From NCBI GenBank assembly GCA_029262535.1, contig JAJCZF010000083.1, positions 37,094 through 101,093 on the forward strand: 64,000 nucleotides of DNA, in the 5' to 3' direction. Both the position numbers and the translations under genes were made by a program. Source of the stretch: Deltaproteobacteria bacterium (GTDB lineage: Bacteria > Desulfobacterota > GWC2-55-46 > JAJCZF01). Below the pieces are notes generated by a model. The model searched no databases, was not told where the DNA came from, and saw nothing but the letters and a program-made list of their open reading frames with translations. This document shows positions 13,751 through 27,920 of the stretch, in pieces. Every line of letters starts with the position of its first letter. Position 1 is the first letter of the stretch.

Positions 13751-14815
13751 ATGACAAACTATAAAAAACACCTCCTTCGGGCCGTAACGCTACTGGCAAT
13801 CGTCGCTATTTTTTCTGGATGTACACCTGTAGAACAACCAAAGCGCGTATGGCCAAGTCCACCAGACATACCGAGAATCAAATACACTACACGTTATACG
13901 GGACCGGCCGACCTTGAGAAAACATCCCTTATCTCCGACGTAGTCCTGGGCGGCAGGCCGGTTACAACAATAGTAAAACCGATGGGGGTCCATGTTGACA
14001 ACAATGACAAGTTATATATAGCCGACACGGCGCTTGCAACCGTCTTCGTGCTCGACCGCAAGAAGAAAAAGGCAGGAAAACTTGTCCGTTACGGAAGATC
14101 TCCATTTGGCAAACCTATGAATATTGTCACCGACGACTTCGGAAACGTCTATGTCACAGACCTGGCCGGTAGCGCCTTGCTTGTCTTTGACGCGGAAACC
14201 GGTCAATACAAGAGGCATGTAGCCGAAGGACAGAACATCTTTACTAAACCGGCAGGGCTCGCCATCGACAAGAAGAAGATGAGACTCTATGTATCTGACA
14301 CCAAAAACCACCAGATATACGTCTTTGATATAAAGAGCGACAAGCTAATACAAACCATTGGAAGCCGCGGTCCCGGCGCCGGTCAGTTTAACTTTCCCGG
14401 TCATATTACATTCGACCAAGGTAGCAGCCGTCTCATAGTGAGCGACACAATGAACGGGCGCGTCCAGGTCTTCGATAGCAAGGGACGTTTCTTGCTCAAG
14501 TTCGGCAAGTTCGGTGACGGGCCTGGTGATTTTGCGAGACCCAAGGGTATTGCCGTGGACTCGGAACATAATATCTACGTAGCCGACGCCGCATTCAACA
14601 ATATCCAGATTTTTAACGACGAGGGGCAGATACTTATGGCATTCGGAGGGTACGGCAGCAATGCCGGCGCATTGCTACTGCCCGCCGGGTTGTCCATTGA
14701 CAAGGACGACTATATCTACGCATCAGACTCATGGAATGAAAGAATTAATGTCTATGAATTTCTCGGAGATCAACATAAAGACAGAAAGAGCAGAGGAATA
14801 ATTCTGGAGAAATAA
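13751..14815 (+). CDS. NHL-repeat beta-propeller lipoprotein
   Basis: 354 aa. Lipobox IFSGC. Six repeats of the NHL pattern (P.G.A.D..GN.YV.D..N.R.(Q)VF). Confidence 0.8.
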   Translation: MTNYKKHLLRAVTLLAIVAIFSGCTPVEQPKRVWPSPPDIPRIKYTTRYTGPADLEKTSLISDVVLGGRPVTTIVKPMGVHVDNNDKLYIADTALATVFVLDRKKKKAGKLVRYGRSPFGKPMNIVTDDFGNVYVTDLAGSALLVFDAETGQYKRHVAEGQNIFTKPAGLAIDKKKMRLYVSDTKNHQIYVFDIKSDKLIQTIGSRGPGAGQFNFPGHITFDQGSSRLIVSDTMNGRVQVFDSKGRFLLKFGKFGDGPGDFARPKGIAVDSEHNIYVADAAFNNIQIFNDEGQILMAFGGYGSNAGALLLPAGLSIDKDDYIYASDSWNERINVYEFLGDQHKDRKSRGIILEK

Positions 14816-14844
14816 AGACAGATTAATTTAATTTAATTTTCTTC

Positions 14845-14873
14845 TTGACTTAAATTAATTATCGAGCTATAAT
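14845..14873 (+). promoter_or_regulatory. Near-consensus sigma-70 promoter
   Basis: TTGACT (14845-14850), exactly 17 bp, TATAAT (14868-14873). It lies about 260 nt upstream of the cytochrome ATG. Confidence 0.55.
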
Positions 14874-15136
14874 GACCTTAATCATGCTGCACAGATGCAA
14901 GGCTCACGACGGGCACTCATCGGCATGACTATATAATTTTAAGGATCGGTTCTCATGTTGGGTATCGAATCCTGTGGCGAAGACGCCGCAATGTTATCTA
15001 TGACAGATGACGTTGGAGGCTTTTTTTTATGCCTTCTACTAAGACCGATGGAGGTCTTATCACCTTAAGCCGCCGAATCATTTAGGACGGCGGACATTTT
15101 CTTGAGGTTCTTTTAACATTTGAAAGGAGCAGGTTA

Positions 15137-16036
15137 ATGAAAAAGTTTTTAGCTTTAGCCCTCGGCCTTGGCCTCGTATTTGCAGTAGCCAACACCTCCG
15201 AAGCGACTAATCCCTCAGATCTAGGCGACAACGCCATCGCCGGCGGTATTGTTGGCTCACGTCACAACCTTGGCGCATGGGGCGTCCACTTTGTAGCGGA
15301 TAACTCCGACTCCAACGGTGGAACTTCCGAAGTTTGTATCTGGTGTCACACCCCTCACCACGGCTCAACCACTGCGCCGTTGTGGAATAAGGGTACCCAG
15401 ACCAACACTGGTGATTACATCGGTTATGGTACGACCATTGCCGGAACCAGCGCCGACACCACACCGGGCGCTGCTTCCCTCGCTTGCTTGAGCTGTCATG
15501 ATGGTGTCAACACAATCGACACCCTCGTAAACGCTCCTGGTAAGGGTAACGACGGTTCCAACAACTCCACCAGAACCGACTTCAACTGGACATTCACCGA
15601 AGACGGTAACACCGTTAACGATAGCTTAGGTTCCACAAGATTGAACCTCGGTACTGATCTCAGCAATGATCACCCGATTTCGATCACCTACGTTGCCAAC
15701 AACGCTTCCCTGAGGGCAACATCCGTAGTAATCTCCACACTCGACATGTCCACGACGTCCATGACAGCTGGCGACGGTAGCGACGACCATTCCTCGACTA
15801 CGATCACCAACAGGTGGAGCGTAAAGGGTTACATCAACCCGGGCGCAACCATCTCCGATCTCCTCAGGAGCGGTAAGGTTGAGTGTTCTTCCTGTCACGA
15901 TCCGCACTTCTCCAACAAGACTTGGGATGAGACCGAGTCTGCTTGGGGCGGCGAGTCTGATTCCGATGGTCTCTTCCTCAGAAGAGTCGGCGGAAACTCC
16001 CTCTCCGGTGTATGTCGTACCTGTCACGATAAGTAA
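15137..16036 (+). CDS. Secreted tetrahaem c-type cytochrome (paired-CXXCH type)
   Basis: 299 aa with a signal peptide and AAGGAG RBS. Four CXXCH motifs (CIWCH, CLSCH, CSSCH, CRTCH). The SRHNL...C..CH.PH pattern resembles doubled-CXXCH domains. Confidence 0.8.
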   Translation: MKKFLALALGLGLVFAVANTSEATNPSDLGDNAIAGGIVGSRHNLGAWGVHFVADNSDSNGGTSEVCIWCHTPHHGSTTAPLWNKGTQTNTGDYIGYGTTIAGTSADTTPGAASLACLSCHDGVNTIDTLVNAPGKGNDGSNNSTRTDFNWTFTEDGNTVNDSLGSTRLNLGTDLSNDHPISITYVANNASLRATSVVISTLDMSTTSMTAGDGSDDHSSTTITNRWSVKGYINPGATISDLLRSGKVECSSCHDPHFSNKTWDETESAWGGESDSDGLFLRRVGGNSLSGVCRTCHDK

Positions 16037-16085
16037 GCGTGACACGACAGTGTTGAGGGTGTAAACCCAAGACCGAAGATCGAAA

Positions 16086-16120
16086 AGAGGCGGGCCAGCA
16101 ATGGCCCGCCTCTTTTTTTT
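16086..16120 (+). terminator. Intrinsic terminator
   Basis: AGAGGCGGGCC-agcaat-GGCCCGCCTCT stem followed by T8. Confidence 0.85.
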
Positions 16121-16307
16121 ATTTCCACCTCCGCACCCTGCCTTTTAACACTATAAAAAAGAGAGAAATTATCATAGAACTCCTTTTTCATAGACCTCCA
16201 TAACTGAAAGCGCCGCCATAACCCAATGGACGCTAAAAAGAGATCAAACAGATATAGACCCTCCCGCTTATTGATTAAGTTCGATTTAACTGTTATTATT
16301 TTTAAAT

Positions 16308-18269
16308 ATGAATAGAGATGAAAACAAGAGCTACCTCGCCGGGAAAGGGATTGAAAGCTTTTACCCGTTAATTCCTTTTATCGCTTCCTTTCTATTATAT
16401 GCGAGAACGCTCGGACACGGCTTTGTATATGATGACGGGGAACAGGTACTTAATAACCCGTGGCTCTCTGGGCTAGAGTCGATACCAAAAATTTTCATCT
16501 CCGCCGCCTGGGACTTTTCGACATATATGGCAGGCTCTAATTACTACAGGCCGATTATGCATATCTCCTTTCTCCTTGAGAAGCTCGCATTCGGCCTTAC
16601 GCCATGGGCATTTCACATGGTCAATATACTGCTCCATTCCGTAAACTCTCTTCTGGTCTTTATAACGGCAAGGCTTATCTTTAAGGCCTTGCTAGAAGAA
16701 AGCGACCAGGAGAATTTCCGCCACAAGACCGGTCTCTCGCCCGCCTACCCACTACTTGCGGCCCTCATCTTTGCCCTTCACCCTATAAACTCTGAGGTGG
16801 CGAGCTGGGTCTCGGCCCTGCCTGAGCTTACTTTTACATTATTTGGCCTGATAGCCTTCATCATACATATAAAAGCCGGTTCAGAGAGCAATATTCCACT
16901 TAGAATCCTCTCAGCGGCCTTCTTCCTACTGGCTCTCCTGTCAAAAGAGACGGGCGCGGCATTTTTTCTGATAATATTGGCATTCGATTACTCGTTAAGG
17001 GGGCGCTACATCCTCAGGCGCTGGTCGCACTACCTCCCCTATATTGCGGCATTTTCTATCTATTTGACACTTCGTTTCTACGCCCTCTCCGGCCTTGCCG
17101 GAAAGAAGATGATCGAGATCACCCCCTGGGAGTCGATCATAAATGTCGCCCCGTTGCTTACATCCTACCTATGGAAACTGCTCGTTCCTGTAAACCTTAG
17201 TGTAATATACCCTTTCGAGCCGGCCTCATATATAACGGAAGCTCGCACATTAGGCTCGCTCTTAGTGCTTGCTCTATTCATAGCTCTAATCATATATTTT
17301 AGGAAGAGACGCACTCTCTTCTTCACACTACTTTGGATTGTCATTCCACTACTGCCCATACTATACCTTCCCGTTGTATCTGTCGGCGGTTTTGCCGACA
17401 GATACCTATACCTCCCTTCCGCCGCCTTTGCGATTCTAATCTCATATATATCGATAGAGGCAGGTTCCAAAACCTCTTTGAGCCAGAGAAAACGGTTTTT
17501 ACAGATATTCTTTCTCTGCCTTCTTACGCTCTACGCTCTCGGCTCGGTAAGTAGAGCCGGTGTCTGGAAAGATAACTTTACACTCTGGAGCGACACGGTA
17601 AAGAAGGCCCCGGAAAGCTCGCTGGTTCAAGCATCGCTCGCATCCGCCTACTATGACGCAGGCAAAACGGATCTCGCTTTAGTCCATTACACGAGGGCTA
17701 TCGAGCTTGAACCAGGCAACTTCCGCGCACACTATAACCTCGCGTTAATATACGAGAAATCAAGTAGCCTTCCCCTGGCTGTAAAACATTACCGCCTCTC
17801 TGTATACTCTAATCCACTCTTTGAAATGGCGCACTTCAACCTTGCTATAGTCTACAACAAGAGCGGGCAGAGGGCCTTGGCCATTAACTCTTACAAAGAG
17901 GTTATTAAGGTAAATCCAGCCAACTATCGCGCTTACTCCAACCTTGCATGGCTCTTTATGGAAGAGGCTGATTACTCGCGCGCAGTCGCCTCTTTTAAAA
18001 ATGTGCTAAGGTACGATCCGTCCAATTTACGCGCCACGGGCGGGCTCGCCATGGCCTATCACGGCCTTGGAGACTGGTCTCGCGCTACCCCGCTCTACAA
18101 GGCGACGATCCGGGCAAACCCGGACGATTTCGATGCCCGCTACAACCTTGCGACAATATACTCCGTAACCGGAAGAAATGGCGAGGCCATAGCCGAGCTT
18201 TCCGAATTACTTCGACTTTATCCCGCTCATTCAGAGGCGCGAATAAAGCTACGGCAACTCCAGCAGTGA
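16308..18269 (+). CDS. TMTC-like polytopic membrane protein with C-terminal TPR repeats (putative protein O-glycosyl/mannosyl-transferase family)
   Basis: 653 aa. N-terminal FVYDDGEQVLNNPWL motif, about 9-11 TM helices, then at least 6 TPR units (AHYNLALIY, AHFNLAIVY, AYSNLAWLF, ...). Confidence 0.75.
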   Translation: MNRDENKSYLAGKGIESFYPLIPFIASFLLYARTLGHGFVYDDGEQVLNNPWLSGLESIPKIFISAAWDFSTYMAGSNYYRPIMHISFLLEKLAFGLTPWAFHMVNILLHSVNSLLVFITARLIFKALLEESDQENFRHKTGLSPAYPLLAALIFALHPINSEVASWVSALPELTFTLFGLIAFIIHIKAGSESNIPLRILSAAFFLLALLSKETGAAFFLIILAFDYSLRGRYILRRWSHYLPYIAAFSIYLTLRFYALSGLAGKKMIEITPWESIINVAPLLTSYLWKLLVPVNLSVIYPFEPASYITEARTLGSLLVLALFIALIIYFRKRRTLFFTLLWIVIPLLPILYLPVVSVGGFADRYLYLPSAAFAILISYISIEAGSKTSLSQRKRFLQIFFLCLLTLYALGSVSRAGVWKDNFTLWSDTVKKAPESSLVQASLASAYYDAGKTDLALVHYTRAIELEPGNFRAHYNLALIYEKSSSLPLAVKHYRLSVYSNPLFEMAHFNLAIVYNKSGQRALAINSYKEVIKVNPANYRAYSNLAWLFMEEADYSRAVASFKNVLRYDPSNLRATGGLAMAYHGLGDWSRATPLYKATIRANPDDFDARYNLATIYSVTGRNGEAIAELSELLRLYPAHSEARIKLRQLQQ

Positions 18270-18521: not shown

Positions 18522-19544
18522 ATGAAGACTGTATTAACTACGATTCTATCGGCTTTCTTATTCATCTTTCTCACGATATTACCCGGCCCGGCCCACTCAG
18601 TCGAAGACGCCGACATAGGTCCAGACCCAAGGCTGAAGGTCGTTGTCAGCGTCGGAGATGTCGATATCACAGAAGAAAATCTTCAAATCCACATGCAAAG
18701 ACTAATCCCAAAGTTGGCCTTCCACTCATCGGTATCCGAACGCCGCATGAAGATAATAAGAGAAAAGGCGATAGAAGAGCTTATCAGCGACATTGTCATT
18801 CTGCGCGAGGCCAAAGAGCTTAATGTCACGGTCAAAGAGTCCGACGTTAAAAGGGCGGTCAACCAGATCAAGAAGAGAACCCCCAGAGGGCAATCGTTTA
18901 AGGATATTCTCAAAAACAGCAATATGACCATCAAAGATTTCAAGGACGAGCTCCGTGACGGTTTTATAAAGAGCAAGTTAAAAACCAATAAAAAAGAAGA
19001 GTTTGCCGCTATCGCTACGGAGACGGTGAATAAGGCTTATCTCAAGGACTATTATGAGAAGAACCTGCCCAAGTTCGTAGAGCCCGCCAGGTTGCGCGTA
19101 AGTGAGATACTTATAAAGGCAGACCCGTCCGGCGGCAATAAGGCATGGTCCGCGTCCTACAAAAAAAGTAAGTCCATATATGATATATTAATGGCTGGCG
19201 GCGACTATGTAGAACTTGCCAAAGAACACTCCGAAGACCAGTTCGCCGAAAAAGGCGGAGATCTCGGCTGGGTACACGAAGGCAGCCTTACCCCGGAGGT
19301 AGACAAGGCCCTGAGCATGATTAAGAAAGGAGAGATAACAACGCCGATAAGAACACTCTACGGCTTCCATGTCTTTAAGATAGTCGACAGGCAGGAAGCG
19401 CACCAAAAAGCCTTTGAGCACCTAAACCACGCAAATCTTACTAAGGAGCTGCACAAGAAAGAATCTGAAAGGCTCTGGAATGAATGGTTTGCCGCTATAA
19501 GCAAGAAGGTCAAAATAGTCAGGCACGACAATGAAGATAAATAG
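18522..19544 (+). CDS. Periplasmic parvulin-type peptidyl-prolyl isomerase (SurA/PpiD-like)
   Basis: 340 aa with a signal peptide. PpiC domain motifs (GGDLGWV..., YGFHVFKI). GGGAGG RBS. Confidence 0.8.
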   Translation: MKTVLTTILSAFLFIFLTILPGPAHSVEDADIGPDPRLKVVVSVGDVDITEENLQIHMQRLIPKLAFHSSVSERRMKIIREKAIEELISDIVILREAKELNVTVKESDVKRAVNQIKKRTPRGQSFKDILKNSNMTIKDFKDELRDGFIKSKLKTNKKEEFAAIATETVNKAYLKDYYEKNLPKFVEPARLRVSEILIKADPSGGNKAWSASYKKSKSIYDILMAGGDYVELAKEHSEDQFAEKGGDLGWVHEGSLTPEVDKALSMIKKGEITTPIRTLYGFHVFKIVDRQEAHQKAFEHLNHANLTKELHKKESERLWNEWFAAISKKVKIVRHDNEDK

Positions 19545-19974
19545 AGGTTCCATAAAAAGAGCTCGATACTCGCTCGTATCGATAATAGCGTTCCTCTCTC
19601 TCTTTATTACCGCTGAGGCCGCCCTCTCGGCTGAGACCGGAAGACCCGCCGGCGACCCGGTAGCCGGAAAGCTGGTCTATGAAAAACATTGCCACTTCTG
19701 CCACGGCCGCACCGGGCGCGGAGACGGTCCGGTCGGAATCGCCGTCTCGCCCCACCCGGCAAACTTCGTCACAGATGCCAAAAGGATGAAAAAGAGCGAC
19801 AAAGAGCTCTTCGACTCCCTCTCGGACGGCATAGTAAAAGAGCTCGGCGGCGACGAAATGGCCATGCCCGCATGGAGGGGCATACTTACGCCTCAGGAGC
19901 GCTGGGACGTAATCTCTTACATTCGCCTTCTATCCTTGGAAGGCAAAGAAAAAGACCGCAAAAAGCTTCCATAA
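19531..19974 (+). CDS. Monohaem class I c-type cytochrome
   Basis: 147 aa with a signal peptide, CHFCH haem motif and distal MPAW Met. It overlaps the upstream gene by 14 nt. Confidence 0.8.
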   Translation: MKINRGSIKRARYSLVSIIAFLSLFITAEAALSAETGRPAGDPVAGKLVYEKHCHFCHGRTGRGDGPVGIAVSPHPANFVTDAKRMKKSDKELFDSLSDGIVKELGGDEMAMPAWRGILTPQERWDVISYIRLLSLEGKEKDRKKLP

Positions 19975-20000
19975 AATGAGTCTCCGAAAAAATGGCTTAA

Positions 20001-21156: not shown

Positions 21157-21158
21157 CC

Positions 21159-22748
21159 ATGGGTAGTGCCGGAGATTCACGCAGCTCTCTACAATCTTAT
21201 TTGGTCTTTACAGTCTTTATCACCGGCGGCGTCATCATGGTGGTCGAGCTTCTAGGCTCGCGCGTAATCGGGCCGTCCTTCGGCGTTAGCCTCTTCGTAT
21301 GGACTTCGCTCATCACTGTTACCCTCATCTCGCTATCGTTAGGTTACTGGCTCGGCGGACGACTTGCCGATATTAAAAATACTCCCGGAACCCTTTACGC
21401 CATTATCCTCGGGGCCGGCCTCTACCTGGTACTAATCCCCTACATCAAAGGGTTTGTGCTGGCCTGGGCCATCGGACTCGGCATACGCACGGGCGCGCTT
21501 GTTAGTTCTATAATTCTATTTGGCCCCCCCCTCTACCTTTTGGGAATGGTAACGCCCTTTATCGTAAAGCTCAAGCTTACCGGAGATGTAGGCGTAGGGG
21601 CTACGGTTGGCAGGTTGTACGCAATCAGCACGGCAGGAAGCGTAATTGGAACGATCATCACCGGTTTTATACTGATACCTGCTTTAGGAGTTGATAAGAT
21701 TATATTTATCTCCTCCCTGGCGCTCATAATACTTACCGCTATTTACTGGATTATCTCGCGAACAAGAAGTATCGCCTTTGCTTCTATTGTCTTTTTGCCC
21801 GTTATACTCATGTCCACCGAAAGAGACGACATGAAGCCGATCGTCAGAGAGGACGGAACAAAGGTAACGATGGTCTCAAACCAGGAGAGTGTCTACGGGC
21901 AGGTTAAGGTCGTTGATTATACCTATGAAGGCATACACCTTCGTGAACTGCTTCTGGACAATATCATACAGGGCGGCGTGGACCTCAACAAGGGACTCTC
22001 GCTATTTAAATACCAGTACTACCTCGAACGCCTCGCGCATGCATATAACAAAGACGCGAAGAAGGCCCTTGTAATAGGGCTCGGTCCGGGCATAGTCCCG
22101 GCCAGACTATCCAAGTACTATGGCATGACGACCGACGTGGTCGAGATAGACCCGGTTGTGCTGGAAACGGCAAAAAACTACTTCAACTACGATCCGGGCC
22201 TTGGCAAGGTCTACCTGGAGGACGGGCGCTACTACCTGAGAAGGACCCCGACGACCTACGACGTAATGGTGCTAGACGCCTTCTCCGGCGACATAGCGCC
22301 GAGCCACCTTATGAGCATGGAGGCCTTTGAACTGATGGAAGGAAAACTCTCCGAGGACGGCGTGCTTCTGATAAACTTCCTTGGCAGTTTTGAAGAGACG
22401 AGCGCATTTGTGCTCTACTCCCTTAACAGGACGCTCAAAAACACCTTTGCTCATGTTGACGTCTACACATACGAAGGGCACAACAAGAAGAACACTAACC
22501 CGGCAAACTTTATCTTTGTAGCATATAACAAAGAGAGGTCGCTTGAACGCTCAATCGTAAAGGCTCCCGTTCACCCCCCGGTAAGCAAGGACGTAGACGG
22601 CTTGCTCGACAGGAAGATGAACTTTACACAGGAGACAATGCTCCTGACCGACGACTACAACCCGATAGACTATTACGACGTTCTCTTCAGGGAGAAGTTC
22701 AGACTCGATACCATACGGTCGACCGATAGGGCGATCATAATAAACTAA
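21159..22748 (+). CDS. Membrane-fused spermidine-synthase-like (SAM-dependent aminopropyl/methyl-transferase fold) protein
   Basis: ATG 21159 lies 2 nt after the upstream stop, with a GGGAG RBS. About 7 N-terminal TM helices, then ALVIGLGPGIVP (GxGxG) and DVMVLDAFSGD motifs of the spermidine synthase family. Confidence 0.75.
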   Translation: MGSAGDSRSSLQSYLVFTVFITGGVIMVVELLGSRVIGPSFGVSLFVWTSLITVTLISLSLGYWLGGRLADIKNTPGTLYAIILGAGLYLVLIPYIKGFVLAWAIGLGIRTGALVSSIILFGPPLYLLGMVTPFIVKLKLTGDVGVGATVGRLYAISTAGSVIGTIITGFILIPALGVDKIIFISSLALIILTAIYWIISRTRSIAFASIVFLPVILMSTERDDMKPIVREDGTKVTMVSNQESVYGQVKVVDYTYEGIHLRELLLDNIIQGGVDLNKGLSLFKYQYYLERLAHAYNKDAKKALVIGLGPGIVPARLSKYYGMTTDVVEIDPVVLETAKNYFNYDPGLGKVYLEDGRYYLRRTPTTYDVMVLDAFSGDIAPSHLMSMEAFELMEGKLSEDGVLLINFLGSFEETSAFVLYSLNRTLKNTFAHVDVYTYEGHNKKNTNPANFIFVAYNKERSLERSIVKAPVHPPVSKDVDGLLDRKMNFTQETMLLTDDYNPIDYYDVLFREKFRLDTIRSTDRAIIIN

Positions 22749-22786
22749 AGCACCGAATACATATTTTACGGAGGTCCTAAAGAGCT

Positions 22787-23599
22787 ATGATTGGTTTAAA
22801 CTTAAAAGAAAAAAAGATGCCGGCTATAATACTGGCCGCATTCATAACACTCTCCCTGTCGTCTTGCTCAAGCTCGCCGCCCGAGGGCACGGTAAAGGTC
22901 CCTGCCGGTGAGTTCACAATGGGTTCTAACGAGATGGACACGGAAGGCAAGGCCATCCAGTACGGAGCCAACATGCCGTGGTTCTTAAACGAGCACCCCG
23001 CTCACAAGGTCACGGTAGAAGAGTTCTATATCAGCAAGACCGAGATCACAAATAAAGAGTACGCTAAATTCATAAAGAAGACAGGACAGAGCGCGCCCGC
23101 ACACTGGGAGGGAGGCTCCTATGAAGAGGAACTAGCCGACCACCCCGTGGTATATGTCTCATGGTTCGATGCCAAGGCTTACTGTGAAGACGCGGGAGCG
23201 GGCCTTCCTACGGAAGCCCAGTGGGAAAAGGCAGCCAGGGGGACAGACGGACGAAAGTTTCCATGGGGCAATGAATTCGACGATAAGAAACTAAATACAT
23301 TCGGCGATTTCGGTTCGACGACACCGGTCGGTAAGTTCCCTGCCGGAGCGAGCCCTTACGGCGCGCTCGACATGTCAGGCAACGCTCAGGAATGGGTTCA
23401 GGATTCATATAAGGCTTATCCCGGCAACGACTATAAAGATAAAAACTTCGGGGACAGGTCGAAGGTCGTTCGCGGCGGCGGCTGGGGCGGACTGGGCCAC
23501 TATGCATCGCAAGTATATGTACGCACTGCAAACAGGGTTTCGTCACCCCCTGGCGGCAAGTACGACGATGTCGGTTTCAGGTGTGTCTGGAAGCCTTGA
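22787..23599 (+). CDS. FGE/SUMF1-domain lipoprotein
   Basis: 270 aa. Lipobox LSLSSC. Same FGE-family motif set as 20119-21156 (VKVPAGEFTMGS, HPVVYVSWFDAKAYC, RGGGW). Confidence 0.8.
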   Translation: MIGLNLKEKKMPAIILAAFITLSLSSCSSSPPEGTVKVPAGEFTMGSNEMDTEGKAIQYGANMPWFLNEHPAHKVTVEEFYISKTEITNKEYAKFIKKTGQSAPAHWEGGSYEEELADHPVVYVSWFDAKAYCEDAGAGLPTEAQWEKAARGTDGRKFPWGNEFDDKKLNTFGDFGSTTPVGKFPAGASPYGALDMSGNAQEWVQDSYKAYPGNDYKDKNFGDRSKVVRGGGWGGLGHYASQVYVRTANRVSSPPGGKYDDVGFRCVWKP

Positions 23600-23639
23600 C
23601 ACTAGATTGGGTTAACTGAGAAGGAAAATCTTTTTTTGT

Positions 23640-25673
23640 ATGTATAAGGCGAAGACGAATAATAAAATCAAGAGTCCATTGTCCGCAATAGAACTCTTAG
23701 AAAGCAGGGTTGCGTCTATAACGGCGTTATGGGCCGTCTTGGTTCCGGCCATCCTCTTGCTCTCTACCCTCGCCCTGACATCGCAGGTAAATGCCGCGCT
23801 TCCCCCTATCGACTCAAGAGACGTATATATTCACAAAAGACTCTACCTGCGGCTTGATTATGAGACTGAAAATATAAAGAACACGTACGAGAATAATAAT
23901 GATACCAATTCCTACACCTCGACCAACTTCACACAGACATACGATTTTAACTTTTCAGGCAACGCATGGGACCCGCGGTTTATTGTATACGATGCAAAAA
24001 TTATATATAGAAACCGCAATTTCTCATACGACAATAATGATAGTGCCAATAATAGCTGGTTCTACTCCTTCAGGACGGTCTTGCTCAGGAAGTTCAGATA
24101 CCCGCTAACACTGCTTGTGGAAAAGTCTATCGACAAAAACGAAAGTTCCACAAAGTCTACCGAGTATATAAGAAACCGGTACATGTTACGCTGGTTTCTT
24201 CGTTTCAGGACCCTGCCTGTCACCAAAATCACCATTCAGAGGGTCACAAATATATATGGCCCAAATACCGTTACAAGTATGACATACGACTTATATATGA
24301 CAAAAGACTACGGACCCACAAAAAATAGTTTTTCCCTGTCGCATTCCACTGGAGAATCTAACAAGGCTACGACTGTTTCATTCACAAATGTGACTAAGAT
24401 TTCACATAGAACCTCGTTCTCCATGAATGCGGTAAAATCATATAGCTTTAGAGGCTCAGAGAAAGATCATGATGGTACAGGTCTTTCTCTGGACCTGAAT
24501 TCTAAACCCAGCAGATTTTTCGGTCAATCCCATTATTACAGTTTTTATAGAGCCGTTGATGAGTACGGTACTACTACAGGCAATAACTATAGCGGTTCCC
24601 TCTCTTATACACCGTCCGAGAGGTACACTCTATCCACTACACTGAACTATTTCGAGGACAGCACACGCTCATCCACAAACAACTCAGAAGACGAGAGGCT
24701 TTCATCAGGCACTTTCTTTAATTATACCATCTCGGAGGATCTGGTTTTTTTCCAAAACATCAACCTAAGCACCTCACAGTCAAGACAACTTCAATCTGCC
24801 AGCAATGAAAACAAGTTTACTTCTTTTAATACAGACAGCGGACTGAACTATCGAAAACGACTTGGTTGGGCAAGCTTTAGCTCTTCATACGGTATGGGCT
24901 ACTTTTTCACAAAGTCCTCTCCCAGCGAACTTACATACTCAGGAATAAGTAACAGACTTAACCTCTCTCTCGGAGGGATAAACGCAAGGCTTTTTAATAT
25001 TTCCACCGGGCTTGGGATGAGTCGCCAGGACAGCCTCTCCATTGCCGGATGGAGCCAAAACGTCAACGCTAATATAAGCGCCAATAGCCGCTTTCTCAGA
25101 AAATATCTTTCTCTTGGCACTGGCTACTCTACTTCAAGAACTTGGGATTTCAACCCGGCACGGGACAGTCATAGCCAAGGCTACAGCATCATATTGTCAA
25201 CAAATATCATTAAAAGAGGCACTCTTTCATCATCATATAAACGGATCGATTCGTGGGACTTTATCAGTGGTGACAAGCGCAGTGAAAACTTTGCTGTCAC
25301 TGCCAGCTACAATGCAGTAATACTACAAGGAAAACTCACTCTACGTGCCAGAATGCGAAACACTAAACACACATTCAAAGGCGGTAATACAGACTACCTT
25401 AATTACAATATAAACGCCAAGTACAGGCGCCCTCTTCCTCTCGGCCTGAAGTGGACTACCACAGCCGCATATGGTAAAGGAGAAGACCTCGTTAACTCAT
25501 ACTCAAACAGCAACGCCACGTTAACCAATAATCTTTACTACCAGCTTCGCGCATGGGGCCTCACCGCCGAACACCGCTATCGCTTACAGACGCTCACCAA
25601 CGGGATAACACAGAGCGAAAGCAGGATAATGTTTAAGGCCACACGCACCATCTTTCGTCAATTCTACCGATAA
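23640..25673 (+). CDS. Putative outer-membrane beta-barrel protein (N/S/T/Y-rich, unknown family)
   Basis: 677 aa with an N-terminal signal-like segment ending QVNA. It has pervasive alternating hydrophobic/polar short strands rich in Y, S, T, N. The gene is visibly more AT-rich than its neighbours. Confidence 0.5.
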   Translation: MYKAKTNNKIKSPLSAIELLESRVASITALWAVLVPAILLLSTLALTSQVNAALPPIDSRDVYIHKRLYLRLDYETENIKNTYENNNDTNSYTSTNFTQTYDFNFSGNAWDPRFIVYDAKIIYRNRNFSYDNNDSANNSWFYSFRTVLLRKFRYPLTLLVEKSIDKNESSTKSTEYIRNRYMLRWFLRFRTLPVTKITIQRVTNIYGPNTVTSMTYDLYMTKDYGPTKNSFSLSHSTGESNKATTVSFTNVTKISHRTSFSMNAVKSYSFRGSEKDHDGTGLSLDLNSKPSRFFGQSHYYSFYRAVDEYGTTTGNNYSGSLSYTPSERYTLSTTLNYFEDSTRSSTNNSEDERLSSGTFFNYTISEDLVFFQNINLSTSQSRQLQSASNENKFTSFNTDSGLNYRKRLGWASFSSSYGMGYFFTKSSPSELTYSGISNRLNLSLGGINARLFNISTGLGMSRQDSLSIAGWSQNVNANISANSRFLRKYLSLGTGYSTSRTWDFNPARDSHSQGYSIILSTNIIKRGTLSSSYKRIDSWDFISGDKRSENFAVTASYNAVILQGKLTLRARMRNTKHTFKGGNTDYLNYNINAKYRRPLPLGLKWTTTAAYGKGEDLVNSYSNSNATLTNNLYYQLRAWGLTAEHRYRLQTLTNGITQSESRIMFKATRTIFRQFYR

Positions 25674-25727
25674 GCACAGCTGACCATCGGCTTAAAAGGC
25701 CGTATAACCTACCCCCCCCCTTTTCCC

Positions 25728-27920
25728 CTAACGTATTTCGAGGCTTTGCAACAGATTTTTTGCGTCAGGATAACCGGGCAATATGACAAGAGCCTTATTC
25801 AGTTCACTTGCGGCGGCGGACCTGTCGCCTGCCTCTATATATACAAGCGCCAGATTATAATGCGTTTCAGCAATCATCGGGTCTGCGGCAATAGCGCTTA
25901 AGTATGCGGATATCGCTTCTTCGACCCTTCCGGTGGAGTGATATAACCATGCAAGATTAAAACTGTAATCGTGATTTTCCGGGGCGATCCTTGCAGCCTC
26001 GGCAAAGTGGCTTATAGCGCCTTCAACGTCACCGTTCTCATTATAGATCAAGGCCAACTTAGAGTGCGCAGGGGCATGGCCGGGGAAAGAGATTAAGAGC
26101 TTTTTATATTGAGCGATTGCCCTGGCGGTCTCGCCCGAGACCGCCAGAACCTGAGCAAGCGCGAAGCTGGCTTCGACATGATCCGGGTCGATACGAAGCG
26201 CCTCTTCAAAACCGGATATGGCCCGCCCGTAGTGCTTTAATTCAAAACTTAAAGAAGCGAGATTATAGGTTATCTCTAAACTACCGGGTTTTAATCTGAC
26301 TGCCTCGGCAAGGTGTATGGAGGCCTTTTGAAGCTCACCGCTCTGCATGTAGATATTGGCCAGGTTGTTATGGGCCTCTGCCTTCTCCGGATTGAAAGAT
26401 AGCGCCGCCATGTAATTCTCCATTGCCGCCCTTCTATCTCCGCCTATATAATATGCCCTGCCTAGATTAACATAAGCGGAGCTGTAGTTGGTTTTCAAGC
26501 TCAGGGCCTCTTTATAATGATCTATCGCCGCGTTGATATTTGCTTCCGCCTCATAGGCCAGGCCAAGATTATTATGGGCCTCGGCAAGGGCCGGCGACTT
26601 ACGAGCCGTATCACTCCATAGGGCAAGCTCGGAGCTCCATATCTCGTTCCTTTTATAAGAAGATAGAGCCAACACAATAAGCACAGAGAAGAAAACGACC
26701 CATGCGAGACGCACTCTCTTCTCATTGCCAAGATAGACCACAAGCGCGCTAAAGGCGGCCCCGACCGCTATAAACGGGCCGACACTCGGCAGGTATAACC
26801 TGTGCTCGAATATCACATGCTTTATCGGTATGACCGAACTCTCCACCCCAAGGGTCACAAAGAACCAGAAGACTCCAAAGGCGACAAGCTGACCGTATGG
26901 TCCGTATAGCTCACGACTCACCCTTGAACGTATGAAAAGATATAACGCGCTTGCGGCAATAGAGAGAAGAAAGACGAGAGAGAGTAGCGGCCCCGCCGCG
27001 GCAAGCGACTTATAGTGCGGATAGTCGTAGAGCAGGTTCTGTCCGGACGGCCATACCAGCAGCCTTAGGTAAGTCACAATCACGCGAAACTGAGTAAAGA
27101 GATACTCGGAACTAGAGAGCGTAAGCAGCTCGTCCATCTGCGCCTTCTTTACGACAAGGGCCGCGCCGCTTATACCGGCTCCGGCCCCACTACCCGCCAC
27201 CCCCGCTCCGCTTTCCGCCAATAGCGTAAGCGGTATTATCAGGAGAGATAATAGAAAAGGTATAACCCGGACCGCCGACCCTTTAAAACTTCCTTCGGCT
27301 CGAATAAAGGCGAACTCGATAAAGAGAATAAGTATTGGCAGGGTAAAGGCTATCTCCTTAGTCTTCTGTGCCAGTAGACAGCTTATAAGAGATAAAACGT
27401 AAAAAAACCACTCGCGGCCAGTGGACCGCGTAAGGCGAGCCTTCAAATATAGAACAATCGAGAGGAGGTAAAAGAAGGCCGCAAGGGAGGTAAAACGCTG
27501 CGTAATATAATTTACGGCCTGCGTCTCCACAGGGTGGGCTATAAAGAGCAACGCCACAACAAAGGCCGCGCCATGCCGGGTCCTCGTGGAGAGCTCTTGA
27601 TTTTCTGCAAAGAGCGAAGTCCTGAAAAGGAGCAACACTAGAGAGTATATAAGGGCTGCGTTTAAGAGATGAATCGTTAGGTTAGTAAGCTTAAAGGCTA
27701 AAGGGTCGTAACCAAAGGCAGCATAGTTGAGCGCAAAGCTCAAGAGGCCCAGGTACCTTGTGCCCGAGATATCAATAAAGTTAGAAAGATCCCTAATGGG
27801 CGGGTTATCCAATATATAGAGGGTGTCGTCAAAGACAAAGGGGCCTCCCGTGGCCCCGGCGTATATGGCGATACCGAGCCCGAAGAGGATGAGCAGGTGA
27901 ATATAGGAGGTTTTAGACAT
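25728..27920 (-). CDS. TMTC-like polytopic membrane protein with C-terminal TPR repeats (paralogue of 16308-18269)
   Basis: 730 aa. FVFDDTLYILDNPPIRDL motif, multiple TM helices, and at least 8 TPR units (AHNNLGLAY, AYVNLGRAY, AHNNLANIY, ...). Confidence 0.75.
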   Translation of the reverse strand: MSKTSYIHLLILFGLGIAIYAGATGGPFVFDDTLYILDNPPIRDLSNFIDISGTRYLGLLSFALNYAAFGYDPLAFKLTNLTIHLLNAALIYSLVLLLFRTSLFAENQELSTRTRHGAAFVVALLFIAHPVETQAVNYITQRFTSLAAFFYLLSIVLYLKARLTRSTGREWFFYVLSLISCLLAQKTKEIAFTLPILILFIEFAFIRAEGSFKGSAVRVIPFLLSLLIIPLTLLAESGAGVAGSGAGAGISGAALVVKKAQMDELLTLSSSEYLFTQFRVIVTYLRLLVWPSGQNLLYDYPHYKSLAAAGPLLSLVFLLSIAASALYLFIRSRVSRELYGPYGQLVAFGVFWFFVTLGVESSVIPIKHVIFEHRLYLPSVGPFIAVGAAFSALVVYLGNEKRVRLAWVVFFSVLIVLALSSYKRNEIWSSELALWSDTARKSPALAEAHNNLGLAYEAEANINAAIDHYKEALSLKTNYSSAYVNLGRAYYIGGDRRAAMENYMAALSFNPEKAEAHNNLANIYMQSGELQKASIHLAEAVRLKPGSLEITYNLASLSFELKHYGRAISGFEEALRIDPDHVEASFALAQVLAVSGETARAIAQYKKLLISFPGHAPAHSKLALIYNENGDVEGAISHFAEAARIAPENHDYSFNLAWLYHSTGRVEEAISAYLSAIAADPMIAETHYNLALVYIEAGDRSAAASELNKALVILPGYPDAKNLLQSLEIR

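What the first reader, a model, noticed from the sequence alone, without database searches (positions are those of the whole stretch)
13751..27920. 14-kb envelope cluster mixing cytochromes, NHL, TMTC/TPR, FGE-domain and spermidine-synthase-like proteins
Ten consecutive genes all encode exported or membrane proteins. They are an NHL lipoprotein, a tetrahaem paired-CXXCH cytochrome, a TMTC-like TPR membrane protein, a parvulin PPIase, a monohaem cytochrome, a dihaem-FGE fusion, a polytopic spermidine-synthase-like protein, an FGE lipoprotein, a 677-aa putative barrel, and a second TMTC-like TPR protein on the opposite strand. Several junctions are overlapping or tiny (19531/19544; 21156/21159; 23599/23640). 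From memory, cytochrome/NHL/PpiC combinations occur in Geobacter-type genomes with no assigned function. I do not know of a described pathway for the addition of two FGE-domain proteins with no sulfatase in sight, plus a membrane aminopropyl/methyl-transferase-like enzyme and glycosyltransferase-like TPR proteins. A redox-linked envelope protein or lipid modification system is a reasonable hypothesis.
Basis: partly seen in the sequence, partly recalled or inferred. Interest (0 to 1): 0.65.

Follow-up and report, generated by a model that had tools for sequence, protein, structure and literature searches.

The report
Variant OmcE-type cytochrome nanowire gene cluster
This 14-kb stretch is a lineage-specific version of the gene cluster bacteria use to build and export OmcE-type extracellular "nanowire" cytochromes. 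It carries an unexplained extra module (cytochrome-fused formylglycine-enzyme-like proteins and a membrane methyltransferase-like protein) and a previously uncatalogued regulatory RNA leader.

Summary
In detail: all ten ORFs, their domain assignments and their export signals hold.

The cluster is not an orphan. The 299-aa tetrahaem cytochrome is a homologue of the OmcE nanowire subunit (profile vs PDB 7tfs, E 2e-23). It keeps all four CXXCH motifs and four further invariant histidines.

The NHL lipoprotein, the SurA-like parvulin and the 677-aa protein correspond to the beta-propeller lipoprotein, PPIase and large outer-membrane barrel of published omcE/Uet/osc clusters. The barrel match is by hhalign, 99.5%.

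The two "TMTC-like" proteins have a GT-C glycosyltransferase fold plus TPRs (AF2 pLDDT 91; the top ~33 Foldseek hits include 32 GT-C enzymes).

What is new is a module that replaces the canonical second propeller and decahaem cytochrome. It consists of:
- a monohaem cytochrome c;
- a dihaem-FGE that keeps FGE's copper-binding Cys pair;
- an FGE-fold lipoprotein without that pair;
- in about 40% of clusters, a ~7-TM, spermidine-synthase-fold protein that lacks the aminopropyltransferase acidic residue, so it looks like a methyltransferase.

The gene order is conserved in about 45 loci from uncultured Thermodesulfobacteriota.

The tetrahaem gene has a conserved promoter, a covariation-supported leader RNA ending in a terminator (no Rfam match) and a strong downstream terminator.

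Verdict: new variant of a known kind.

The parts
12134..13555 (-). Sigma-54-dependent response regulator (receiver + AAA+ + Fis HTH), divergent neighbour of the cluster
   Evidence: Pfam. Homologues flank OmcE-type clusters in L061, L062, L066, L076, L112 and L117. No sigma-54 promoter was found in the window's cluster, so a regulatory link is not shown.
13751..14815 (+). NHL-repeat beta-propeller lipoprotein (counterpart of UetH/I and of the omcE-cluster propeller lipoproteins)
   Evidence: Pfam NHL/DUF5128. Lipobox FSGC. Found next to OmcE-like genes in nearly all loci with enough flank, across phyla. A promoter-like site lies at 13667-13696.
14845..14873 (+). Sigma-70-type promoter of the tetrahaem gene (TTGACT-17-TATAAT)
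   Evidence: Matches 11/12 positions. The TTGAC..TATAAT boxes are conserved in the aligned upstream regions of orthologues.
14879..15030 (+). Structured 5' leader: a P1-P2 hairpin (present twice in this copy), a conserved linker, and a long terminator hairpin followed by a U-run
   Evidence: nhmmer finds it at 40 places, each beside an OmcE-like gene where one is annotated. CM R1 gives 37 hits, nearly all directly upstream on the gene's strand; the window hit is 14932-15030, 34.2 bits. In the model-fitted alignment 93% of cells are paired and 22/26 pairs show compensatory changes; covariation score 0.583 vs 0.212 for shuffles and 0.05-0.08 for slid controls. No Rfam 15 match.
15137..16036 (+). 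OmcE/UetA-family tetrahaem c-type cytochrome, the probable secreted (filament-forming) subunit
   Evidence: PDB 7tfs (OmcE filament) E 5e-12 for the single sequence and 2e-23 for the profile; 9yuq 1e-16. Four CXXCH motifs plus invariant H43, H74, H179 and H257. The family has 4317 representative clusters at E<=1e-3.
16082..16117 (+). Strong intrinsic terminator after the tetrahaem gene
   Evidence: 16-bp stem with 9 G-C pairs, followed by a T-run.
16308..18269 (+). GT-C-fold glycosyltransferase-like membrane domain (residues 1 to about 425) plus C-terminal TPRs
   Evidence: AF2 pLDDT 90.8. Of the top 33 Foldseek PDB hits, 32 are GT-C enzymes (STT3/AglB/PglB, Pmt4, ArnT, DPY19, AftB, Emb, ALG3), mostly prob ~1.0, TMq up to about 0.5. 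Invariant DD at 42-43. Some homologues carry PF13231/PF02366. TPRs by Pfam.
18522..19544 (+). Periplasmic SurA-N + parvulin PPIase (counterpart of UetB and OscH)
   Evidence: Pfam. Follows the OmcE-like gene in both variant and canonical clusters.
19531..19974 (+). Monohaem class I cytochrome c with a signal peptide
   Evidence: Pfam Cytochrome_CBB3/Cytochrom_C. Lies immediately upstream of the dihaem-FGE gene in the close orthologous loci whose contig reaches that far.
20119..21156 (+). Dihaem cytochrome c fused to an FGE-fold domain that keeps both copper-binding cysteines (C311, C316)
   Evidence: Pfam. The Cys pair aligns with that of S. coelicolor FGE 6muj. It is invariant in the 10-11 orthologues aligned. 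A matching GGS..C-x4-C motif is present in 7 of 8 distant loci listed.
21138..22748 (+). Protein with about 7 TM segments plus a spermidine-synthase-fold domain, lacking the GxG(D/E)G acidic residue (methyltransferase-like); the alternative start is the ATG at 21159
   Evidence: NF037959, 252 bits. Alignment to spermidine synthase structures and a hit to METTL13. The motif reads GLG[SPAN]G in 15/15 orthologues; hydrophobic segments span residues 17-228. Absent from about 60% of orthologous clusters.
22787..23599 (+). FGE-fold lipoprotein without the catalytic Cys pair (GGGWGGxGHY in its place)
   Evidence: Pfam. Orthologue alignment. Paired with the dihaem-FGE gene even outside OmcE-type clusters.
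23640..25673 (+). Probable large outer-membrane beta-barrel (UetC-like)
   Evidence: No Pfam or NCBIfam hit. hhalign to the ~580-aa protein that follows the PPIase in canonical clusters: 99.5%, E 1.6e-22, 515 columns. That family matches the UetC-position proteins of Gallionellaceae at 97.7%. Beta-amphipathic periodicity z = +4.0, no TM helix, no Cys. One orthologue has a sub-threshold OMP_b-brl hit. The AF2 model failed.
25728..27920 (-). Second GT-C-like membrane domain + TPR protein, a paralogue of 16308-18269
   Evidence: BLASTP E 6e-45 over the full length, including the FVFDD motif. Pfam TPRs. A homologue sits in the same convergent position in L004, L008, L020, L085, L101, L105 and L107.

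Best explanation
The region is a lineage-specific variant of the OmcE/UetA-type extracellular multihaem-cytochrome cluster.

The subunit gene. The 299-aa tetrahaem protein is the exported electron-carrying subunit and, by homology to OmcE, probably polymerises into a haem wire. It is transcribed on its own from a conserved strong promoter. The transcript passes through a structured leader that ends in an intrinsic terminator, so expression should depend on regulated read-through. A strong terminator follows the gene.

The core assembly genes. The SurA-like parvulin would hold or fold the largely coil subunit in the periplasm. The NHL propeller lipoprotein and the 677-aa outer-membrane barrel would form the outer-membrane station through which the subunit is passed or on which it is mounted, as proposed for Uet, omcE and osc clusters.

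Glycosylation. The two GT-C/TPR enzymes would glycosylate exported protein on the periplasmic side from lipid-linked sugar. The Ser/Thr-rich variable loops of the subunit are the likeliest target.

The accessory module. Where canonical clusters have a second propeller and a deca/undecahaem cytochrome, this variant has a monohaem c, a dihaem-FGE with an intact Cu(I) Cys pair, a Cys-less FGE-fold lipoprotein and, optionally, a ~7-TM methyltransferase-like protein. I infer that this module either feeds electrons into the base of the conduit or carries out a haem/copper-driven oxidative (and methyl) modification of an exported component.

Shown: homology, motifs, fold of the GT-C domain, synteny in both search directions, RNA covariation.
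Inferred: polymerisation, export route, glycosylation target, and everything about the function of the FGE/SpdS-like module.
For: - OmcE homology: PDB 7tfs E 5e-12 for the sequence and 2e-23 for the profile; 9yuq 1e-16. Haem motifs 3 and 4 match collinearly, and the protein ends CXXCH-x-K as OmcE does.
- There are 4 CXXCH motifs plus 4 further invariant His, which is bis-His ligation for four haems with none spare, as described for OmcE homologues.
- Forward synteny: NHL-tetrahaem-PPIase-cyt c-cFGE-(SpdS)-FGE2-677aa in L002, L004, L005, L008, L016, L020, L049, L051 and L053, inverted in L046 and truncated in L013.
- More distant phyla have tetrahaem-NHL-PPIase-~580aa-NHL-decahaem. That matches the published minimal omcE cluster and uetA-B-C...H-I-J.
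- The 677-aa family aligns to that ~580-aa family at 99.5%.
- Reverse synteny from cFGE: the 37 loci with 57% identity or more carry cluster genes wherever the contig extends.
- In L117 the order is barrel-NHL-cyt c-cFGE-FGE2, which places the module where the decahaem normally sits.
- GT-C fold; GT-C/TPR genes accompany most variant clusters.
- Cu-site cysteines retained.
- Promoter, leader and terminators.
Against: - There is no experimental or structural evidence here that this tetrahaem polymerises or leaves the cell.
- The barrel fold of the 677-aa protein rests on remote homology and periodicity only; its AF2 model failed (pLDDT 27.6).
- The window lacks the two larger multihaem cytochromes and the second propeller that the omcE paper says are always present in minimal clusters.
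- The cFGE-FGE2 pair also occurs in 43 metagenome loci with no OmcE-like or PPIase gene, and only one weak NHL hit, within 10 kb. Its function is therefore not specific to this system.
- The SpdS-like gene is missing from more than half of the orthologous clusters.
- Many paralogous tetrahaem genes stand alone elsewhere in the same MAGs.
- No expression data are available.
Confidence: 0.7

Rival explanations
1. It is a Uet/Mtr-like porin-cytochrome conduit without a polymer. [quoted passage not shown]
For: The core has the same gene set as uetA/B/C/H/I, for which a conduit model was proposed. The cyt c-cFGE-FGE2 module sits where the multihaem partner sits in L117. Class I cytochrome c is a typical periplasmic carrier.
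Against: The closest solved relatives of the subunit are both filaments: 7tfs, and 9yuq with 16 chains. Three haems are few for a barrel family that normally accompanies a decahaem. A strong own promoter, own terminator and multiple paralogues fit an abundant structural subunit.
Confidence: 0.2
2. One reading: the cluster is mainly a redox-driven envelope modification pathway. The cytochromes, including the tetrahaem, feed electrons to the FGE-type oxidase. The oxidase, the methyl/aminopropyl-transferase-like protein and the GT-C enzymes together modify an envelope protein or lipid encoded elsewhere.
For: The FGE copper-site cysteines are strictly conserved. Haem domains are fused or adjacent to the FGE domain. 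cFGE-FGE2 exists as a stand-alone module. The GT-C fold is confirmed. The fungal 7-TM SpdS-fold NHMT does methylate secreted proteins (PMC10349129).
Against: The tetrahaem, NHL, PPIase and barrel genes are conserved together in many phyla that have no FGE, SpdS-like or GT-C gene nearby. The core therefore does not exist to serve the FGE enzymes. No candidate substrate motif (CxPxR) occurs in the window.
Confidence: 0.08
3. The adjacency is fortuitous: unrelated envelope genes happen to lie next to each other.
For: The SpdS-like and GT-C/TPR genes are variably present. The likely transcription units are separate.
Against: The order is conserved at 46-70% protein identity in 11 genome loci and 37 metagenome loci that were found from two different genes.
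Confidence: 0.02

Closest known systems
omcE cluster of Geobacter sulfurreducens / Desulfuromonas soudanensis (OmcE tetrahaem nanowire; PDB 7tfs, and probably 9yuq)
   Same: The subunit is a homologous tetrahaem with the same 4 CXXCH + 4 His pattern and the same C-terminal end. It has a neighbouring beta-propeller lipoprotein and a large barrel. GT-C-type glycosyltransferase and TPR genes are attached, as in freshwater Geobacter clusters.
   Different: The subunit is about 70 residues longer, with Ser/Thr/Asn-rich insertions. There is only one propeller and no additional large multihaem cytochromes. The variant adds a monohaem c, a dihaem-FGE, an FGE lipoprotein and a 7-TM SpdS-like protein. 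It also has its own leader RNA. The host is an uncultured Thermodesulfobacteriota lineage.
uetABCDEFGHIJ cluster of 'Ca. Tenderia electrophaga' and Gallionella (bioRxiv 10.1101/2022.05.06.490989; PMC10734462)
   Same: The tetrahaem (UetA), PPIase (UetB), large beta-barrel (UetC) and NHL protein (UetH/I) are present in the same relative order A-B-...-C. Loci L075-L081 link the two by homology.
   Different: There are no trihaem c7 proteins in the window, no cupredoxin UetF and no undecahaem UetJ. The FGE pair and cyt c stand between the PPIase and the barrel. Direct homology of the 677-aa protein to UetC-position proteins is only transitive (34% direct; 99.5% then 97.7% via the intermediate family).
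osc (OmcS companion) operon of G. sulfurreducens (Shen et al. 2025, as summarised in PMC13194489)
   Same: The logic is the same: a nanowire subunit gene with a PPIase proposed for folding (OscH) and outer-membrane components proposed for secretion (OscEFG).
   Different: The subunit there is the hexahaem OmcS, which is not homologous at the sequence level (profile E 0.35). I could not read the primary paper, so gene-by-gene homology was not tested.
Formylglycine-generating enzyme and its inactive paralogue (SUMF1/FGE and SUMF2/pFGE)
   Same: FGE fold. One member carries the two Cu(I)-binding cysteines in register with FGE, and a partner lacks them, which mirrors SUMF1/SUMF2 (PDB 1y4j is among the hits).
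   Different: It is fused to a dihaem cytochrome c, exported to the periplasm of a probable anaerobe, and has no sulfatase or CxPxR substrate nearby. The partner is a lipoprotein. In that respect it resembles the structural FGE-fold lipoproteins PorK/GldK of type IX secretion, which are also among the hits.
Fungal N-terminal histidine methyltransferase NHMT (7-TM + SpdS-fold; PMC10349129) and METTL13
   Same: It has an N-terminal multi-TM domain of about 230 residues (about 7 hydrophobic segments) followed by a spermidine-synthase-fold domain. The acidic residue of GxG(D/E)G is replaced in the same way (I in NHMT; S/P/A/N here). It is encoded among genes for secreted proteins.
   Different: No detectable homology of the TM domains was tested. 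It is bacterial. Its topology, cofactor access and substrate are unknown. It is optional in the cluster.
GT-C protein glycosyltransferases with TPR domains (eukaryotic TMTC1-4; PMT family)
   Same: GT-C fold membrane domain with an acidic DD motif in the first loop, followed by a C-terminal TPR array.
   Different: The membrane domain has no Pfam match and no sequence match to the PDB. Only some homologues reach PF13231/PF02366. Donor and acceptor are unknown.

Membership tests
OmcE-family tetrahaem nanowire cytochrome | Four CXXCH haem-binding motifs | tested here: met
   C67/C70/H71, C117/C120/H121, C250/C253/H254, C293/C296/H297. The cysteines and the first three histidines are invariant and C296/H297 nearly so (one of 33 homologues is C-terminally truncated).
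OmcE-family tetrahaem nanowire cytochrome | Four further conserved histidines as distal haem ligands (all haems bis-His) | tested here: met
   H43, H74, H179 and H257 are invariant. The RHNL, TPHH and NDHP motifs align with KHDL, TPHN and NDHP of OmcE. Actual ligation is not testable here.
OmcE-family tetrahaem nanowire cytochrome | Significant sequence similarity to OmcE of solved filaments | tested here: met
   7tfs_A E 5.4e-12 (sequence) and 2.1e-23 (profile); 9yuq_N 3.9e-10 and 9.8e-17.
OmcE-family tetrahaem nanowire cytochrome | Polymerisation into a filament, with a haem ligated by a His of the neighbouring subunit | not testable with these tools
   Needs cryo-EM or at least haem-aware multimer modelling.
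Minimal omcE gene cluster (bioRxiv 10.1101/2025.10.22.684050) | Two multihaem cytochromes, two beta-propeller lipoproteins, the OmcE subunit and a large beta-barrel | tested here: not met
   The subunit, one propeller lipoprotein and a probable barrel are present. There is no second propeller, and no other ORF in the window has more than 2 CXXCH. Hence a variant, not a canonical member.
Uet cluster | UetA tetrahaem, UetB PPIase, UetC barrel, UetH/I NHL proteins | tested here: met
   Tetrahaem, PPIase and one NHL protein by Pfam and synteny. The barrel is linked only by transitive profile homology.
Uet cluster | UetD/E/G trihaem c7, UetF cupredoxin, UetJ undecahaem | tested here: not met
   None in the window. 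A 3-CXXCH protein precedes the NHL gene in related loci L002, L093 and L105.
Formylglycine-generating enzyme (SUMF1 type) | FGE-sulfatase fold | tested here: met
   PF03781 E 1.8e-55 (20119-21156) and 2.9e-56 (22787-23599).
Formylglycine-generating enzyme (SUMF1 type) | Two copper-binding/catalytic cysteines (C-x4-C after GGS) | tested here: met
   Met for the dihaem-FGE: C311 and C316 align with the Cys pair of 6muj and are invariant in the orthologues aligned. Not met for the lipoprotein 22787-23599, which has GGGWGGLGHY.
Formylglycine-generating enzyme (SUMF1 type) | A sulfatase or other CxPxR substrate in the genomic context | tested here: not met
   No C-x-P-x-R motif in any window ORF of 90 aa or more. 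The genome outside the window was not examined.
Polyamine aminopropyltransferase (spermidine synthase) | Spermidine-synthase fold | tested here: met
   PF01564 E 4e-13; NF037959 252 bits; PDB spermidine synthases E 4e-10.
Polyamine aminopropyltransferase (spermidine synthase) | Acidic residue in GxG(D/E)G that binds decarboxylated SAM | tested here: not met
   GLGPG in the window and GLG[SAN]G in 14 orthologues. Therefore not filed as a spermidine synthase. The criterion is the one used in PMC10349129.
GT-C glycosyltransferase with TPR domain (TMTC-like architecture) | GT-C membrane fold | tested here: met
   AF2 pLDDT 90.8, pTM 0.92. Of Foldseek ranks 1-33, 32 are GT-C enzymes.
GT-C glycosyltransferase with TPR domain (TMTC-like architecture) | Acidic motif in the first extracytoplasmic loop and a C-terminal TPR array | tested here: met
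   Invariant D42-D43 within FV[YF]DD. TPR families by Pfam.
GT-C glycosyltransferase with TPR domain (TMTC-like architecture) | Sequence membership of the TMTC/PMT Pfam families | tested here: not met
   No Pfam family at E<=10 on either membrane domain. PF13231/PF02366 are seen only on some homologues.
Any Rfam family (for the leader RNA) | Match to a curated covariance model | tested here: not met
   No match at the leader in the window or in L015, L010 or L007 at E<=1.

The most novel reading that the evidence does not exclude
The cyt c / dihaem-FGE / Cys-less FGE lipoprotein / 7-TM SpdS-fold module is a previously unknown periplasmic maturation machine. In this reading a haem-fed copper oxidase and a membrane methyltransferase chemically modify the extracellular cytochrome subunit or its outer-membrane station, by oxidation and/or N-methylation, alongside GT-C glycosylation. 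In addition, the conserved leader would be a new riboswitch or attenuator class that switches nanowire-cytochrome genes on in response to a still unknown signal.
Probability: 0.2. Interest if true: 0.8.

Novelty: new variant of a known kind. Interest (0 to 1): 0.6.

Why it matters
How cytochrome nanowires are folded, exported, anchored, supplied with electrons and regulated is an open question in extracellular electron transfer (PMC12307469, section 5.4).

This cluster shows that a large group of uncultured groundwater and sediment Thermodesulfobacteriota carry an OmcE-type system. In it the usual decahaem/propeller pair is exchanged for a haem-fused, copper-site-bearing FGE-like pair.

That gives concrete candidates for two things: a new electron-input or maturation step, and a physiological redox partner of an FGE-type enzyme.

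The methyltransferase-like ~7-TM protein and the GT-C/TPR enzymes suggest specific modifications that mass spectrometry could look for.

The conserved terminator-containing leader in front of about 40 OmcE-like genes is a directly testable handle on what controls nanowire production.

Tried and rejected
- AF2 of the 677-aa protein from a 2-sequence alignment gave pLDDT 27.6, which is unusable. The word-indexed homologue search for it returned only one relative because of its composition.
- Pfam at E<=10 and PDB sequence/profile searches on the GT-C membrane domains found nothing. The fold search was needed.
- Sigma-54 promoter searches, exact and with up to 3 mismatches, gave nothing above chance and nothing in the cluster's intergenic regions. 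I do not claim that the adjacent regulator controls the cluster.
- Known riboswitch in the tetrahaem leader (for example a c-di-GMP/cGAMP class): rejected.
- RNAalifold on a plain MAFFT alignment recovered only the P2 hairpin and a short GGC/GCC helix. A covariance-model realignment was needed, which biases pair counts towards the model.
- Sulfatase-maturation reading of the FGE genes: no CxPxR motif in the window.
- Spermidine synthase reading: the defining acidic residue is absent.
- Contexts of distant cFGE-FGE2 pairs (YgiQ-type radical SAM, M14 peptidase, MprF, SecA, UbiA/UbiD) showed no common theme.
- The primary osc paper (Shen et al. 2025) is not in the library. Two literature searches on 'osc' terms returned mostly noise: none of use, only a paper already found.
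- A leader peptide in the leader was rejected. The ATG in the P2 loop is not conserved (CAYGR).

Full report
**1. Checking the observation**

Pfam and NCBIfam confirm every assignable family:
- an NHL/six-bladed propeller with an FSGC lipobox (13751-14815);
- a protein with four CXXCH motifs (15137-16036);
- two proteins with a ~430-residue polytopic N-terminal domain followed by TPRs (16308-18269, and 25728-27920 on the minus strand);
- a SurA-N + parvulin PPIase (18522-19544);
- a monohaem class I cytochrome c (19531-19974);
- a protein with two CXXCH motifs followed by an FGE-sulfatase domain (20119-21156);
- a member of NCBIfam NF037959 'fused MFS/spermidine synthase' (21138-22748);
- an FGE-sulfatase lipoprotein (22787-23599).

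The 677-aa ORF (23640-25673) has no family match. Signal peptides, lipoboxes or hydrophobic segments are visible in all ten translations.

The genes on either side are housekeeping or regulatory:
- Upstream are ruvABC, yebC, queH and a divergent sigma-54 response regulator.
- Downstream are a 911-aa soluble protein with no family match and tRNA-modification-type genes.

No ORF in the 64-kb window has a sulfatase-type C-x-P-x-R motif.

**2. What the tetrahaem cytochrome is**

Its only relatives among solved structures are 7tfs, the cryo-EM OmcE filament of Geobacter sulfurreducens (E 5e-12), and 9yuq, a 16-chain 'putative multiheme cytochrome c' entry. A profile of 33 homologues raises these to 2e-23 and 1e-16. 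The profile also matches haem motifs 3 and 4 collinearly, down to the shared C-terminal CXXCH-x-K end.

In the family alignment the four CXXCH motifs and exactly four other histidines (H43, H74, H179, H257) are conserved, nearly all of them invariantly. That is what four bis-His haems need. It is also the pattern reported for OmcE homologues across five phyla (bioRxiv 10.1101/2025.10.22.684050).

The family is large and almost entirely unnamed:
- 3599 clusters at 90% identity in the indexed search;
- 4317 representative clusters in the exhaustive search, of which 2865 have E<=1e-10.

**3. Synteny starting from the tetrahaem gene**

A scan of one genome per species with the tetrahaem alignment returned 80 loci. 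I translated all their ORFs and scored them against the window's proteins. Two patterns appear.

- Variant pattern. In uncultured 'Deltaproteobacteria'/Thermodesulfobacteriota MAGs, one tetrahaem copy per genome sits in the order NHL - tetrahaem - PPIase - cyt c - dihaem-FGE - (SpdS-like) - FGE lipoprotein - 677-aa homologue. This is seen in L002, L004, L005, L008, L016, L020, L049, L051 and L053, inverted in L046, and cut by contig ends in several others. A GT-C/TPR gene often lies convergent at the end, exactly as in the window. Further paralogous tetrahaem genes stand alone elsewhere in the same MAGs.
- Canonical pattern. In Campylobacterota, Nitrospirota, Aquificota, Nitrospinota, Methylomirabilia, Gallionellaceae and Rhodocyclaceae the order is tetrahaem - NHL - PPIase - ~560-780-aa protein without haem - NHL - deca/undecahaem cytochrome.

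The canonical pattern is the composition published for minimal omcE clusters: two multihaem cytochromes, two beta-propeller lipoproteins, OmcE and a large beta-barrel. It also matches the uet cluster:
- UetA: tetrahaem;
- UetB: PPIase;
- UetC: predicted 28-strand barrel;
- UetH/I: NHL proteins;
- UetJ: undecahaem.

Gallionella genomes are reported to carry uet genes.

**4. The 677-aa protein**

AF2 with only two sequences failed (pLDDT 27.6). Profile-profile comparison gave three results:
- Its 11-member family aligns with the ~580-aa family of the canonical clusters over 515 columns (probability 99.5%, E 1.6e-22).
- That family aligns with the proteins in the UetC position of Gallionellaceae/Rhodocyclaceae loci (97.7%).
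- The direct comparison of the 677-aa family with those UetC-position proteins is weak (34%).

Other features also fit a barrel:
- The mature part has no Cys and no hydrophobic helix.
- It is rich in Ser, Thr, Asn, Tyr and Arg.
- It shows beta-type (180 degree) hydrophobic periodicity 4 SD above shuffles, with no alpha-type signal.
- One orthologue has a sub-threshold hit to OMP_b-brl.

**5. The TPR membrane proteins**

The two are paralogues over their whole length. Their membrane domains match nothing in Pfam, even at E<=10, and nothing in the PDB by sequence or profile.

With 40 homologues, AF2 gave a confident model (pLDDT 90.8, pTM 0.92). Of the first 33 Foldseek matches in the PDB, 32 are GT-C glycosyltransferases: STT3/AglB/PglB, Pmt4, ArnT, DPY19, AftB, EmbA/B/C, ALG3 and Pmt1-Pmt2.

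An FV[YF]DD motif with invariant DD lies in the first loop. A minority of homologues carry PF13231 or PF02366.

So the architecture is that of TMTC/PMT-type protein glycosyltransferases, but sequence membership of those families is not shown.

The omcE paper notes three relevant points:
- Freshwater Geobacter clusters are followed by GT39-type and TPR genes.
- G. sulfurreducens OmcE shows extra densities.
- D. soudanensis OmcE shows no such densities.

The window's subunit has a Ser/Thr-rich variable stretch at residues ~200-225.

**6. The FGE pair**

The dihaem-FGE keeps both cysteines of the FGE copper site. HMMER aligns GGSWYDCTYYKC with GGSYL-CHDSYC of S. coelicolor FGE 6muj, Cys on Cys. 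These residues are invariant in all close orthologues, and a matching motif is present in distant relatives. The lipoprotein partner has GGGWGGxGHY instead and no such cysteines. The pair thus resembles SUMF1/SUMF2.

A reverse scan of metagenome contigs with the dihaem-FGE alignment gave two groups:
- The 37 loci with 57% identity or more carry only genes of the cluster set around the FGE gene wherever the contig extends (PPIase, cyt c, FGE2, SpdS-like, 677-aa, GT-C/TPR, OmcE-like, NHL).
- The 43 loci at 53% identity or less mostly keep only the dihaem-FGE/FGE2 pair, in unrelated surroundings (radical SAM YgiQ, M14 peptidase, MprF, SecA, UbiA/UbiD).

The pair is therefore a wider, self-contained module that this lineage has recruited.

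In L112/L117 the order is sigma-54 regulator - pentahaem - NHL - tetrahaem - 596-aa protein - NHL - cyt c - dihaem-FGE - FGE2. There the module stands where the decahaem stands in canonical clusters. This is the best hint that it substitutes for that cytochrome functionally. The strict conservation of the copper-site cysteines argues that copper chemistry, and not only scaffolding, is involved.

**7. The spermidine-synthase-like protein**

It has about seven hydrophobic segments (residues ~17-228) followed by a spermidine-synthase fold.

The acidic residue of the GxG(D/E)G motif is what lets aminopropyltransferases bind decarboxylated SAM. Here it is Pro, and in 14 orthologues it is Ser, Ala or Asn. 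The domain also hits METTL13.

The same architecture and the same motif change define the fungal enzyme NHMT, which methylates the N-terminal histidine of secreted LPMOs (PMC10349129). I therefore do not file it as a spermidine synthase. A methyltransferase acting on exported substrates is the best analogy, but its topology and cofactor access are untested.

It is present in only about 40% of orthologous clusters. L008 retains a C-terminal remnant of it, fused upstream of the FGE2 ORF.

**8. Transcription signals**

The tetrahaem gene is set apart from its neighbours:
- A near-consensus promoter (TTGACT-17-TATAAT, 14845-14873) lies about 260 nt upstream of the gene.
- A 16-bp G+C-rich terminator (16082-16117) follows the gene.
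- PPIase through the 677-aa gene are tightly packed and probably form one operon.

No sigma-54 promoter was found.

**9. The leader RNA (found while checking the promoter)**

Upstream regions of orthologues share the promoter and about 100-150 nt of leader. An nhmmer profile finds this element at 40 places, beside OmcE-like genes including lone paralogues.

Individual MFE folds agree on the following layout:
- a 5' hairpin made of a variable outer helix P1 and a conserved inner hairpin P2 (GGYUC, 5-nt loop, GGGYC);
- a conserved linker AGGCGAUGG;
- a long hairpin whose base is GAUGCC/GGCAU, followed by 6-9 U, which is an intrinsic terminator.

A covariance model seeded on three sequences finds 37 hits, nearly all directly upstream of the gene on its strand. 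It finds none in the canonical clusters of other phyla that were searched.

On the model-fitted alignment:
- 93% of cells pair;
- 22 of 26 pairs show compensatory changes;
- the covariation score is 0.583, against 0.212 +/- 0.013 for shuffles and 0.045-0.083 for slid registers.

The fit to the model inflates these numbers somewhat. The four P1 pairs each show four to six pair types.

Rfam 15 has no match. The window and L004 carry a second P1-P2-like hairpin upstream.

This looks like an undescribed attenuator or riboswitch candidate that controls the subunit genes.

**10. Comparison with what is known, and verdict**

- What it works like: an OmcE/Uet/osc-type machinery for an extracellular multihaem cytochrome.
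- Membership: the subunit passes every sequence-level test for the OmcE family. The cluster fails the 'two multihaem cytochromes + two propellers' criterion of the minimal omcE cluster. It also lacks UetD-G and UetJ. It is therefore a variant.
- What is not described: I found no paper that links FGE-domain proteins with multihaem/NHL/PPIase clusters.
- Assessment: the main finding is a new variant of a known kind. Two parts remain unexplained or new: the haem-fused FGE pair, with or without the methyltransferase-like protein, and the leader RNA. Interest 0.6.

Noticed in passing
window 14845-15030 (+); also e.g. L015:5466-5562, L005:9816-9924, L010:3493-3596: A conserved promoter plus a structured leader RNA lies upstream of about 40 OmcE-like genes. 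The leader consists of a covarying P1, a conserved P2 hairpin, the linker AGGCGAUGG and a terminator hairpin with a U-run. It has no Rfam 15 match, so it is a candidate new riboswitch or attenuator. The window and L004 carry a tandem second P1-P2-like hairpin.
   Followed up: yes
window 3243-3327 (+): A c-di-GMP-I riboswitch (RF01051, 62 bits) lies upstream of a 182-aa ORF with no family match (3361-3909) and a DksA/TraR zinc-finger gene (3969-4370). Nearby are an HD-GYP-type response regulator (957-2078), an HDOD protein (2239-3072) and an MshE-like T2SSE ATPase with an MshEN domain (5194-7608).
   Followed up: partly
L120-L162 (e.g. L121:9968-12282, L144:9722-11812, L158:9117-11919, L142:6786-11868): The dihaem-FGE (with the Cys pair) and a second FGE-fold gene form a widespread stand-alone pair outside any OmcE-type cluster. 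In L142 and L158 the pair is directly preceded by UbiA (and UbiD) genes. In L121 and L124 the partner carries one CXXCH and is followed by an M14 peptidase.
   Followed up: partly
L117:1769-11730 and L112: A hybrid cluster has the order sigma-54 regulator, pentahaem, NHL, tetrahaem, 596-aa protein, NHL, then cyt c - dihaem-FGE - FGE2 in the position normally held by the decahaem cytochrome.
   Followed up: partly
L008:10342-11520; L046:8078-10647: The SpdS-like gene appears to be decaying in some clusters. In L008 its C-terminal remnant (...DDYNPVDFEDL...) is read in frame upstream of the FGE2 ORF. In L046 only two weak fragments remain.
   Followed up: no
P0038, P0041, P0053 (alignment A1 columns ~240-262); L091, L093, L096, L117: Some OmcE-like paralogues have an insertion with a fifth CXXCH motif. 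Tandem pairs of a 4-haem and a 5-haem paralogue occur in several loci.
   Followed up: no
window 28243-30978 (+): A 911-aa soluble, highly charged protein has no Pfam family. A homologue (438 bits) lies in the same position, next to the convergent GT-C/TPR gene, in L105, and a weaker one in L049.
   Followed up: no
L052:9729-9860: Tandem ~45-nt repeats (GGCGCTAATACCGGCTCACGCAGGTGGGCCAGATTACCGGCTCACGCAGGTGG...) lie between the leader terminator and the OmcE-like gene in this locus.
   Followed up: no
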